NCBI GenBank assembly: GCA_028694995.1
Contig: JAQVJU010000002.1
Coordinates: 2,046-66,045 of the forward strand
Reading direction: 5' to 3'
DNA from: Minisyncoccota bacterium
GTDB lineage: Bacteria > Patescibacteriota > Minisyncoccia > UBA6257
Length of the DNA stretch: 64,000 nucleotides
Shown here: positions 10,521 through 11,231 of the stretch, one piece after another
How the letters are laid out: each line of letters begins with the position of its first letter
Numbering within the stretch: position 1 is the first letter of the stretch
Made by a program: the position numbers and the translations under genes
The notes under the pieces: model-generated
The model's input: only the letters and a program-made list of their open reading frames with translations
Database searches by the model: none
Told to the model about the DNA's origin: nothing

Positions 10521-11231
10521 ATGGAAAAAGAGAAATTTGAACAATTAGTAAGTCAGTCTTTAAAGAAAATCCCTTACAACTTTTTGAATAAAATGGAAAA
10601 TATTGCTATAGTAGTACAGGATGAGCCAACAGAATTTCAAAAAGAAAAATTAGGATATATAGATGGTAATTGTTTATTAGGTCTTTATGAAGGAGTGCCT
10701 CAAATCAAAAGAGGATATTATTATCAAGCTGTGCCTGATAAAATCACCTTTTTTAAAAACAATATTGAAAGAGTGGCTAATAAAAAGGAAGAAAGAATAA
10801 AAGAAATAATAGAAGAAACAGTTTGGCATGAGATTGGACATCATTTTGGCCTAGATGAAGATGAAATTAAAGAGCATATAAAAAGAAAAAAACCATTTTC
10901 AGATAAAAAAATGATTAATTTTAAAGAATTTGAACAATTAGATTTGCGAATTGCAAAAATATTAAAAGCAGAAAAATTAGAAGGTACTGATAAGTTGCTT
11001 GTTTTAGAGATAGATTTAGGAGAAGAGAAAAGACAAATCATTGCAGGTATTGGTCATCAATACAAACCAGAATTATTAATTAATAAAAAGATAGTGGTGG
11101 TGGCTAATCTAGAACCCAGGGAAATAAAAGGCAAATTAAGCCAAGGAATGCTTTTGGCTGTTGATACCTCTCAAGGACCAGTATTATTAATTCCTGAAGG
11201 TGAAGTTTTGCCAGGCAGTAAGGTAAAATAA
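10521..11231 (+). CDS. Fusion protein: zincin-like metallopeptidase domain ([13 protein letters not shown]; Zincin_1/DUF1025-like) + C-terminal tRNA-binding (CsaA/EMAP/Myf-like OB) domain
   Basis: N-terminal HExxH with a downstream acidic cluster. C-terminal segment [37 protein letters not shown]...[22 protein letters not shown] matches tRNA_bind. Confidence 0.6.
   Translation: [236 protein letters not shown]

What the first reader, a model, noticed from the sequence alone, without database searches (positions are those of the whole stretch)
10521..11231. Unusual fusion of a zincin-like metallopeptidase domain with a tRNA-binding (CsaA/EMAP-like) domain
Residues 1-125 carry [13 protein letters not shown]. 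From memory this resembles the small Zincin_1/DUF1025-type 'metallopeptidase family protein' found in actinobacteria. Residues ~150-236 ([37 protein letters not shown]...[22 protein letters not shown]) match the OB-fold tRNA-binding domain found at the C-termini of MetRS and PheT and in CsaA. A protease-like domain tethered to a tRNA-binding domain is not a combination I know as characterised. It could act on aminoacyl- or peptidyl-tRNA, or be a tRNA-guided peptidase.
Basis: partly seen in the sequence, partly recalled or inferred. Interest (0 to 1): 0.6.

Follow-up and report, generated by a model that had tools for sequence, protein, structure and literature searches.

The report
Mini-zincin fused to tRNA 3'-end binder
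A small group of uncultivated Paceibacteria encodes one protein that joins a tiny zinc-hydrolase domain of unknown function to a module known to grip the CCA end of tRNAs; the combination is real, rare, conserved and undescribed, and it suggests (without proving) that the hydrolase works on something attached to tRNA.

Summary
ORF 10521-11231 (+) encodes a 236-aa protein with Zincin_1/DUF1025 (res 25-119, E=1e-23) and tRNA_bind (res 142-233, E=2e-26). Residues 126-236 equal one complete Trbp111 protomer.

The fusion is real but narrow. About 60 clusters from independent assemblies carry it, nearly all 236 aa. They collapse into one 50%-identity cluster among 1.84 billion representatives, and only 3 of the 80 best loci from 185,579 species genomes match at full length. 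Public records call it "MetRS subunit beta", a domain-level name transfer.

Both halves are under purifying selection (dN/dS about 0.1-0.2). The zinc site (H103, E104, H107, E113) and the Trbp111 residues that hold tRNA C75-A76 are conserved.

Literature from 2024-25 shows that this OB fold captures the tRNA 3'-CA end and can host aminoacyl-tRNA deacylation. The best reading is therefore a hydrolase tethered to the tRNA 3' end (confidence about 0.4).

The main rival is a tolerated, uncoupled fusion. It has a single origin, the two genes are never adjacent elsewhere, no domain interface is predicted, and no activity is known for the zincin family.

It is a new variant of a known kind, of moderate interest.

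The parts
10521..11231 (+). Whole fusion gene (236 codons plus TAA stop)
   Evidence: ORF list and sequence. Full-length homologues P0001-P0060, 56-97% identical.
10521..10886 (+). N-terminal mini-zincin domain, res 1-122 (Pfam Zincin_1 envelope res 25-119 = nt 10593-10877)
10827..10859 (+). Metal-site motif [11 protein letters not shown] (H103, E104, H107, G110, E113). The third ligand position holds Glu instead of the family's Asp.
   Evidence: The alignment to 3e11 puts its ligand D105 opposite E113. In 61 fusion sequences H103 is kept in 60, E104 in 60, H107 in 61 and E113 in 61. 56 of 60 non-fusion hits P0061-P0120 (57 of which carry the motif) also have Glu at this position.
10860..10895 (+). 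Basic junction, res 114-125 ([12 protein letters not shown]). It corresponds to the K/R-rich C-terminal tail of unfused CPR Zincin_1.
   Evidence: Unfused tails have a median of 16 aa with 7 K/R against 2 D/E. K123 and K124 are nearly invariant. The linker window used for statistics (res 123-133) is the least constrained part: 66% identity and dN/dS 0.24-0.85.
10896..11228 (+). Complete Trbp111-type protomer, res 126-236. Dimer-interface segments are res 126-140 and 215-236; the core OB fold is res 141-214; the Pfam tRNA_bind envelope res 142-233 = nt 10944-11219.
   Evidence: Ungapped alignment to Trbp111 residues 3-110, offset +125. Trbp111 domain limits come from PMC11286949 section 6. Pfam E=2e-26. 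TIGR00399 scores 118.7 bits against a cut-off of 116.65. dN/dS 0.02-0.22.
11103..11159 (+). Segment [19 protein letters not shown] (res 195-213), which carries the tRNA A76/C75 pocket residues R200, I202, K203, S207 and M210. K158 at nt 10992-10994 completes the site.
   Evidence: Mapped from the Trbp111 mutational and structural data (R75, I77, F78, S82, M85, K33; PMC11286949). Conservation in 61 fusion sequences: R/K200 61, I202 60, K/R203 61, S207 61, M210 61, K158 55. E198, which replaces Trbp K73 / MCP1 K326, is invariant.
10161..10520 (+). Upstream gene 'up119', whose TAA stop abuts the fusion's ATG. It has a RelE/BrnT-like RNase fold. This is context, not a proven part of the system.
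11245..12099 (+). Downstream gene (ATP-cone + Mrr-like + AF1548-like_C), 13 nt after the fusion's stop and syntenic across the clade. Context only.
   Evidence: Pfam. Synteny in L001-L004 and L011-L013.

Best explanation
The gene is a single-origin fusion found only in one Paceibacteria (CPR) subclade. A CPR-type mini-zincin (Zincin_1/DUF1025, metal site HExxHxxGxxE) is joined through its own basic C-terminal tail directly to residue 1 of a complete Trbp111-type OB-fold protomer. Most likely mechanism (inferred): the Trbp111 half forms the usual very stable homodimer and captures the single-stranded 3'-terminal C75-A76 of tRNAs. This holds the two zinc-hydrolase domains, which sit at the dimer's N-terminal hub, at high local concentration next to the acceptor end. 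The hydrolase would then cleave a group carried on or next to A76. The candidates are an aminoacyl or peptidyl ester, an N-acyl or peptide amide, or, less likely, the 3'-terminal phosphodiester. The logic matches that of aaRS-appended Trbp domains and of the artificial PheA-Arc1p-OB enzyme. Shown here: the domain identities, conservation of the catalytic and CA-pocket residues, purifying selection on both halves, the fixed architecture and the narrow distribution. Inferred: dimerisation, tRNA binding, functional coupling of the halves, and the substrate.
For: Both domains are significant. Residues 126-236 align without gaps to the whole of Trbp111, including both dimer-interface segments. The residues whose mutation impairs Trbp111 binding to the tRNA 3' end (K33, R75, S82, M85, plus I77) are kept as K158, R/K200, S207, M210 and I202 in 55-61 of 61 fusion sequences. 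F78 is replaced by K/R203, which is the Arc1p/MCP1 state (R274/R331, cation-pi with C75). The zinc site H103/E104/H107/E113 is kept in 60-61 of 61. Both halves have dN/dS of 0.02-0.24 and are equally conserved (76% and 78% mean identity), and the length is fixed at 236 aa down to 56% identity with synonymous sites saturated, so neither half is decaying. Literature: the OB fold binds only 3'-terminal CA, ignores the cis-diol and tolerates 3' adducts (PMC11286949). The same fold hosts Ala-tRNA deacylation in MCP1/Arc1p (PMC12021450). Fusing this OB fold to a non-tRNA enzyme (PheA) is enough to direct chemistry to tRNA (cited in PMC11286949). The same Trbp-type module is fused to other small catalytic domains in metagenomes: nucleotidyltransferase, NUDIX and a P-loop kinase. 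Weak contextual support: the translationally coupled upstream gene has a RelE/BrnT RNase fold, ychF lies two genes upstream, and unfused CPR Zincin_1 proteins carry a K/R-rich tail.
Against: The fusion arose once. Only one 50%-identity cluster among 1.84e9 representatives matches at full length, and only 4 proteins in that library reach E<=1e-30. Only 3 of the 80 best loci kept from a scan of 185,579 species genomes are full-length, so there is no independent recurrence to argue for coupling. No tRNA_bind gene lies within 6 kb of any of 77 unfused Zincin_1 genes, and no neighbour family is conserved across Zincin_1 loci. AF2 gives no confident inter-domain arrangement (pTM 0.51, junction pLDDT below 50). 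No catalytic activity has been demonstrated for any Zincin_1 member, and 3E11 was crystallised without zinc (PMC3890501). The Lys that MCP1 needs for deacylation (K326 = Trbp K73) is an invariant Glu here. The junction is the least constrained part of the protein.
Confidence: 0.4

Rival explanations
1. Tolerated but functionally uncoupled fusion. In a gene-dense, reduced genome, a Zincin_1 gene and a stand-alone trbp gene became one ORF through loss of the intervening stop. Each half keeps its own unrelated job (unknown zincin function; general tRNA 3'-end chaperone or protector). The fusion persists because both parents are homodimers.
For: Single origin and very narrow distribution. The junction falls exactly at the end of the zincin tail and at residue 1 of a full Trbp111. 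A Met at position 130, near the Trbp start, survives in part of the clade only. The junction is the most relaxed region (dN/dS up to 0.85). No interface is predicted. The two genes are never adjacent elsewhere. Abutting stop/start codons occur at this very locus (TAA-ATG at 10518-10523). Acel_2062 is a dimer in solution (PMC3890501) and Trbp111 is a very stable dimer.
Against: No split or decayed variant was found among about 60 clusters spanning 56-97% identity. Length and both active sites are strictly maintained. The junction residues KKPF are nearly invariant. None of this excludes neutrality.
Confidence: 0.3
2. tRNA as regulator rather than substrate. The OB half senses free (uncharged) CCA ends and gates or localises a peptidase that acts on proteins, for example during starvation or on translation factors.
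For: Trbp111 binds mature, free 3'-CA ends with micromolar affinity and shows one-tRNA-per-dimer negative cooperativity, which hints at allostery. The HExxH Glu is retained, as in true peptidases. The conserved neighbourhood holds ychF, and ychF is known from the literature as a ribosome-associated ATPase; the upstream gene has a RelE-like fold.
Against: There is no precedent for this OB fold acting as an allosteric sensor, no predicted interface and no candidate protein substrate in the conserved neighbourhood.
Confidence: 0.12
3. It is what the databases call it: the beta subunit of a split methionyl-tRNA synthetase, acting in trans as the tRNA-binding C-domain of MetRS, with the zincin as a passenger.
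For: TIGR00399 (metG_C_term) scores 118.7 bits against its cut-off of 116.65, and NCBI and JGI give this name. A related stand-alone OB protein (P0119) does sit directly after a truncated 488-aa MetRS.
Against: The score barely passes a domain-level model that Trbp111 itself matches. No MetRS gene occurs anywhere in the 64-kb window or in the +/-8-10 kb flanks fetched for fusion loci. The conserved synteny is ychF-acyP-up119-fusion-ATPcone/Mrr-ppsA-eno. Trbp111 binds all tRNAs through the universal CCA end, not tRNA-Met specifically.
Confidence: 0.08
4. CsaA-like reading. The OB half binds unfolded polypeptides, as the secretion chaperone CsaA does, and feeds them to the peptidase.
Against: CsaA models fail their cut-offs by a wide margin (TIGR02222 56.2 bits against 119.65; NF007496 51 against 171), whereas the MetRS-C/Trbp models fit. 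PDB E-values are about 1e-27 for Trbp111 and 1e-9 to 1e-12 for CsaA. The CA-pocket residues are conserved.
Confidence: 0.04

Closest known systems
Aquifex aeolicus Trbp111 (PDB 1PYB, 8VTZ, 8VU0), the free-standing dimeric tRNA 3'-CCA-end binding OB fold
   Same: Residues 126-236 align without gaps to residues 3-110 of the 111-aa protein, at about 45-47% identity in structure-based alignments. The core OB fold, both dimer-interface segments and the K33/R75/I77/S82/M85 pocket residues are conserved.
   Different: Here it is the C-terminal half of a larger protein. F78 is K/R (the Arc1p-like state) and K73 is Glu. Dimerisation and tRNA binding were not tested.
Acel_2062 (PDB 3E11) and TTHA0227 (2EJQ), the Zincin_1/DUF1025 'mini-zincins' (provisional MEROPS M94)
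   Different: The third ligand is Glu, not Asp, which is a trait of the CPR subfamily. The protein carries a basic tail and a whole extra domain. Architectures known in 2014 were stand-alone, +TPR and +TM/septum only. No activity is known for any member.
C-terminal Trbp-like domain of MetRS (for example P. abyssi 1MKH, N. equitans 5H34) and other aaRS-appended OB folds (PheRS, TyrRS, LysRS)
   Same: A Trbp-type module sits at the C-terminus of a catalytic unit that works on the tRNA acceptor end. It raises the local tRNA concentration and hands the 3' end over.
   Different: The catalytic partner is a zinc hydrolase-like domain, not a synthetase. No anticodon-binding domain is present and no metG is nearby.
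T. brucei MCP1 / yeast Arc1p OB-fold aminoacyl-tRNA deacylase (PMC12021450)
   Same: Homologous OB fold that holds the CCA end of aminoacyl-tRNA. The equivalents of R331 (K/R203) and S335 (S207) are present.
   Different: The essential K326 equivalent is an invariant Glu (E198). There is no GST domain or EMAPII pseudo-dimer. Any hydrolysis here would more likely come from the appended zincin.
YbeY (UPF0054) metallo-endoribonuclease (1XM5, 1OZ9, 7Y7O)
   Different: 10-15% identity and no Pfam UPF0054 hit. From memory, YbeY lacks the Glu after the first His. The resemblance rests on a predicted model, so it is a lead and not a membership.
Synthetic PheA-Arc1p-OB fusion (Giessen et al. 2015, as cited in PMC11286949)
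   Same: Shows that tethering a non-tRNA enzyme to this OB fold is enough to direct its chemistry to the tRNA 3' end.
   Different: It is artificial and the reaction is aminoacylation, not hydrolysis.

Membership tests
Zincin_1 / DUF1025 mini-zincin (PF06262) | Match to the Pfam model above the gathering score | tested here: met
   83.3 bits against 22.4, res 25-119 covering model positions 1-95 of 97
Zincin_1 / DUF1025 mini-zincin (PF06262) | HExxHxxG core with catalytic Glu | tested here: met
   H103-E104-x-x-H107-x-x-G110, kept in 60-61 of 61 clade members
Zincin_1 / DUF1025 mini-zincin (PF06262) | Asp as third zinc ligand (HExxHxxGxxD, Asp-zincin) | tested here: not met
   The position is an invariant Glu (E113). 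56 of 60 non-fusion hits P0061-P0120 have the same. This is a conservative change and probably still ligates metal.
Zincin_1 / DUF1025 mini-zincin (PF06262) | Fold of 3E11 | tested here: met
   [not shown]
Zincin_1 / DUF1025 mini-zincin (PF06262) | Zinc binding and peptidase activity | not testable with these tools
   Never shown for any member of the family (PMC3890501)
Trbp111 / MetRS-C type tRNA-binding OB fold (PF01588, TIGR00399) | Match to the family models above their cut-offs | tested here: met
   PF01588 92.3 bits against 27; TIGR00399 118.7 against 116.65, a marginal pass
Trbp111 / MetRS-C type tRNA-binding OB fold (PF01588, TIGR00399) | Residues that recognise tRNA C75-A76 (K33, R75, I77, F78, S82, M85) | tested here: met
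   K158, R/K200, I202, S207 and M210 are conserved. F78 is K/R203, as in Arc1p/MCP1.
Trbp111 / MetRS-C type tRNA-binding OB fold (PF01588, TIGR00399) | N- and C-terminal dimer-interface segments present | tested here: met
   Ungapped alignment over Trbp111 residues 3-110; limits from PMC11286949. Actual dimerisation was not tested.
Trbp111 / MetRS-C type tRNA-binding OB fold (PF01588, TIGR00399) | Binds the tRNA 3' end | not testable with these tools
   Needs a binding assay
MetRS beta subunit (split MetRS) | Partnered with, and typically adjacent to, a C-terminally truncated metG | tested here: not met
   No MetRS in the 64-kb window or in the flanks of fusion loci; contrast P0119. The genome-wide form of metG could not be examined.
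CsaA export chaperone | Match to the CsaA equivalog or subfamily models | tested here: not met
   TIGR02222 56.2 bits against 119.65; NF007496 51 against 171
MCP1/Arc1p OB-fold aminoacyl-tRNA deacylase | Catalytically essential K326, R331 and S335 | tested here: not met
   The equivalents are E198 (invariant Glu), K/R203 and S207, so the Lys is missing
YbeY (UPF0054) | Sequence-family membership | tested here: not met
   [not shown]

The most novel reading that the evidence does not exclude
The fusion is a Rosetta stone for the whole Zincin_1/DUF1025 family, which is widespread in Actinobacteria (a 'signature protein' linked to whiB), Chloroflexota and CPR and has had no known activity since its 2008 structure. 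On this reading the mini-zincins are a new class of hydrolase acting at the tRNA acceptor end, for example on aminoacyl-, N-acyl-aminoacyl- or peptidyl-tRNA, or trimming the 3' end as YbeY does. In most lineages they would use their basic tail, and in this Paceibacteria clade a covalently attached Trbp111, to find the CCA end.
Probability: 0.12. Interest if true: 0.8.

Novelty: new variant of a known kind. Interest (0 to 1): 0.45.

Why it matters
If the two halves are coupled, this would be the first natural case of the Trbp/EMAPII-type CCA-end-binding OB fold recruiting a non-synthetase hydrolase. It would also give the first functional handle on the Zincin_1/DUF1025 mini-zincins, a broadly conserved family that includes mycobacterial and streptomycete 'signature' genes and has no known substrate. 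CPR bacteria have minimal translation-quality-control repertoires, so a new acceptor-end hydrolase would matter for how they police charged tRNAs. Independently of function, the public name 'methionine--tRNA ligase subunit beta' for these proteins is a domain-level over-annotation and should be corrected. If the fusion is uncoupled, it is an ordinary lineage-specific gene fusion.

Tried and rejected
1. Rosetta-stone adjacency. A tblastn of the C-domain against 77 unfused Zincin_1 loci (+/-6 kb) gave no hit.
2. Unbiased neighbour clustering around 83 Zincin_1 genes. No family is shared by more than 6 loci, and the top ones are the fusion clade's own synteny.
3. Independent fusions. L070 (tblastn match to residue 184) has a stop after about 131 aa. 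The 373-aa ORF in L086 is a spurious high-GC 5' extension. Neither is a fusion. The longer tRNA_bind hits that were checked by Pfam are mostly MetRS fragments.
4. Substitute-deformylase idea. Rejected, because the window has canonical def (motifs GIGLAAIQ, EGCLS, QHEMDH) and fmt.
5. MetRS. None is in the window.
6. Orientation of the HExxH site relative to the OB fold. Not answerable: AF2 monomer pTM is 0.51 with a low-confidence junction, and neither multimer prediction nor coordinates are available.
7. up119 as the antitoxin or toxin partner of the zincin. Its downstream neighbour varies, so it is not a canonical pair. Pfam and PDB sequence searches gave nothing significant. Only the fold search was informative.
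8. Cluster names for other Trbp fusions. None is on record.
9. Rfam and ARAGORN on the window. They found only one tRNA-Lys, at 18705-18778.
10. Literature. Nothing on this architecture or on Zincin_1 function.

Full report
**1. The observation**

The window has a single uninterrupted ORF at 10521..11231 on the + strand (ATG start, 236 codons, TAA stop). [13 protein letters not shown] lies at residues 103-115.

Pfam finds two domains and nothing else of note:
- Zincin_1 (PF06262), residues 25-119, 83.3 bits against a gathering score of 22.4, E=1.2e-23.
- tRNA_bind (PF01588), residues 142-233, 92.3 bits against 27, E=2e-26.

NCBIfam places the C-half with MetRS C-terminal/Trbp models. TIGR00399 scores 118.7 bits against a cut-off of 116.65. 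The CsaA models fall far below their cut-offs, for example TIGR02222 at 56.2 against 119.65.

Against PDB sequences, the C-half matches Aquifex Trbp111 (1PYB/8VTZ) at E about 1e-27 in an ungapped alignment. The N-half matches the mini-zincin Acel_2062 (3E11) at E about 1e-17.

**2. Is the fusion real, and how common is it?**

A search of 5.8 billion clustered proteins returned 60 clusters (P0001-P0060) carrying both Pfam domains. They are 56-97% identical to the window protein and come from NCBI, JGI, ENA and Logan assemblies. Of the 61 sequences examined, 59 are exactly 236 aa. Every further hit is single-domain. This rules out an assembly or gene-calling artefact.

The clade is shallow. An exhaustive HMMER pass over 1.84 billion 50%-identity representatives found exactly one representative (P0046) that matches over residues 1-236. 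Only four proteins reach E<=1e-30, and all others match one half only.

A scan of one genome per species for 185,579 species kept the 80 best loci. Three of these are full-length: L011 (97%, Candidatus Paceibacterota isolate STE_68), L012 (69%) and L013 (67%). The other 77 have Zincin_1 alone and come from many CPR lineages, Chloroflexota, Elusimicrobiota, Bryobacterales and Actinomycetota. Two apparent exceptions, L070 and L086, are not fusions.

Public records name the protein 'methionine--tRNA ligase subunit beta'. The marginal TIGR00399 domain hit explains that name.

**3. Anatomy**

In Trbp111 the core OB fold is residues 16-89. Residues 1-15 and 90-111 form an exceptionally stable antiparallel dimer interface (PMC11286949). 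With the ungapped offset of +125, residues 126-236 of the fusion are one complete Trbp111 protomer with both interface segments. This probably explains why a monomer AF2 model gives low confidence exactly at 125-131 and 224-236.

The zincin part (1-122) ends in a short basic segment, [12 protein letters not shown]. This corresponds to the K/R-rich tail that ends unfused CPR Zincin_1 proteins, which has a median of 16 residues with 7 K/R against 2 D/E. The junction is therefore head-to-tail with almost no spacer.

A Met at position 130, near the Trbp start, survives in only part of the clade. This fits an origin by read-through of a stop codon between two adjacent genes. Abutting stop/start codons occur at this very locus: TAA at 10518-10520 followed by ATG at 10521.

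**4. The active sites**

By alignment to 3E11, the third metal ligand (D105 there) corresponds to E113 here. The motif is therefore HExxHxxGxxE rather than the family's HExxHxxGxxD. This Glu is invariant in the clade. Among the 60 non-fusion hits P0061-P0120, 56 also have Glu at this position, so it is a subfamily trait and not decay. In 61 clade sequences H103 is kept in 60, E104 in 60, H107 in 61 and E113 in 61.

Juru et al. 2024 showed that Trbp111 does not bind the tRNA elbow. It captures the terminal C75-A76. A76 is held by M85, the R75 methylenes, I77, S82 and the K73 carbonyl. C75 is held by F78 and the E32/K33 backbone. R75A nearly abolishes binding, followed by K33A, S82A, M85A and F78A.

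| Trbp111 residue | Fusion position | State in the 61 sequences |
|---|---|---|
| K33 | 158 | Lys in 55 |
| R75 | 200 | Arg or Lys in 61 |
| I77 | 202 | Ile in 60 |
| S82 | 207 | Ser in 61 |
| M85 | 210 | Met in 61 |
| F78 | 203 | Lys or Arg in 61, the Arc1p/MCP1 state (R274/R331) |
| K73 | 198 | invariant Glu |

K73 corresponds to MCP1 K326, which is needed for that protein's deacylase activity. So tRNA 3'-end binding is very probably retained, while an intrinsic MCP1-type deacylase is doubtful.

**5. Selection**

The two halves are equally conserved across the clade, with mean pairwise identity of 76% (N) and 78% (C). The junction window (residues 123-133) stands at 66%. Codon comparisons of six genes give dN/dS of 0.13-0.24 for the N-half, 0.02-0.22 for the C-half and 0.24-0.85 for the junction, with dS saturated between the deepest pairs. 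Both halves are maintained and neither is a decaying passenger.

**6. Genomic context**

Synteny is conserved across the whole clade: ychF, acylphosphatase, a 119-aa ORF ('up119'), the fusion, an ATP-cone/Mrr-like/AF1548-like protein, PEP synthase, enolase, a 2-hydroxyacid dehydrogenase.

No MetRS is in the window or in the flanks. By contrast, a true split-MetRS arrangement is seen for the stand-alone OB protein P0119.

Unfused Zincin_1 genes have no tRNA_bind neighbour and no conserved neighbour of any kind.

The pre-fusion state can be glimpsed in relatives:
- L019 has up119 directly upstream of an unfused Zincin_1.
- L016 has the two genes close together.
- L091 has ychF-up119-x-x-Zincin_1.
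- L034 has ychF directly upstream of Zincin_1.

The zincin was therefore already in this neighbourhood, and the Trbp module was added later.

The window also holds canonical def and fmt. The fusion is therefore not a replacement deformylase.

**7. How it most likely works**

The appended-OB principle is established. Fused to synthetases, this module raises the local tRNA concentration and hands the 3' end to the catalytic site. Fused artificially to PheA, it creates a tRNA-aminoacylating enzyme. The pocket ignores the ribose cis-diol and tolerates 3' adducts. In MCP1/Arc1p it accommodates aminoacyl-tRNA for hydrolysis.

The best-supported mechanism is therefore a homodimeric, CCA-end-tethered metallohydrolase acting on a group at or next to A76 (confidence about 0.4).

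The same Trbp-type module is also fused to a nucleotidyltransferase (P0073), a NUDIX domain (P0145), a P-loop kinase (P0162) and DUF5652 (P0133) in metagenomic proteins. This suggests it is a portable targeting device for small enzymes.

**8. Rivals**

The strongest rival (about 0.3) is a tolerated but uncoupled fusion. The fusion has a single origin, the two genes are never adjacent elsewhere, the junction is relaxed, no interface is predicted, and both parents are dimers.

Three further readings are less likely:
- A tRNA-gated protease (about 0.12).
- The annotated MetRS beta-subunit role (about 0.08). No metG is nearby and Trbp111 binds all tRNAs, but the genome-wide form of metG could not be checked.
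- A CsaA-like peptide-delivery role (about 0.04). The family models and pocket residues argue against it.

**9. Novelty and verdict**

Both domains are known and the appended-OB principle is known. This particular architecture appears in no paper in the held library and is not among the architectures catalogued for the family. Its public name is misleading.

I rate it a new variant of a known kind, with moderate interest (0.45). It gives a concrete, testable lead to the function of the uncharacterised mini-zincins. That lead is weakened by the fusion's single, narrow origin and by the absence of any independent evidence for coupling.

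Noticed in passing
[not shown]
   Followed up: partly
L009 2317-3114 (P0073); P0145, P0162 and P0133 (no loci fetched): The same Trbp111-type module is fused C-terminally to other small domains in metagenomic proteins: an ANT(2'')-like nucleotidyltransferase (directly after secA), a NUDIX hydrolase, a shikimate-kinase-like P-loop domain and DUF5652. It may be a general 'CCA-end targeting' cassette. None of these appears to be described.
   Followed up: partly
P0221 (377 aa; no locus fetched): Zincin_1 fused to Cu-oxidase_4 (the YfiH/PgeF-type family). 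This is another undescribed Zincin_1 architecture that points in a different functional direction from tRNA.
   Followed up: no
window 10827-10895; P0061-P0120: The CPR subfamily of Zincin_1 has Glu rather than Asp at the third metal-ligand position (HExxHxxGxxE) and ends in a K/R-rich tail of about 16 residues. Acel_2062 has very little sequence beyond its third ligand, so it lacks such a tail. The tail hints at nucleic-acid affinity even in unfused members.
   Followed up: partly
[not shown]
   Followed up: partly
window 11245-12099 (+): The gene 13 nt downstream encodes an ATP-cone + Mrr-like nuclease + AF1548-like_C protein. It is syntenic with the fusion throughout the clade and its function is unknown.
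   Followed up: no
window 52409-54353 (+): An ORF with a PriA 3'-DNA-binding domain (52409-53257) is overlapped by the next ORF (53226-54353), just upstream of def-fmt (54362-55785). This may be a split or frameshifted priA. Not checked.
   Followed up: no
window 45031-45990, 60207-60626, 60975-61481, 63349-63948: A tyrosine integrase, a Fic/DOC protein, a stand-alone GGDEF domain protein and a PD-(D/E)XK nuclease. The Fic, GGDEF and nuclease genes lie close together near the 3' end of the window, and the integrase is about 15 kb upstream. These may be mobile or defence-related genes. A GGDEF protein is somewhat unexpected in a reduced CPR genome.
   Followed up: no
L014 2767-3714 (-); L031 5314-6672 (+); L069 2833-5703 (+): A few unfused Zincin_1 loci have translation genes nearby: an fmt-like gene, a MetRS, and an IleRS-like gene upstream in 4-5 Saccharibacteria-labelled loci (the fmt-like and IleRS-like genes identified by eye only). 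This is too sparse to count as evidence.
   Followed up: no
window 18639-20084 (+) and 18705-18778 (+): The mechanical ORF 18639-20084 starts upstream of, and overlaps, the only tRNA gene in the window (tRNA-Lys, anticodon TTT). The real coding start must lie downstream of the tRNA.
   Followed up: no
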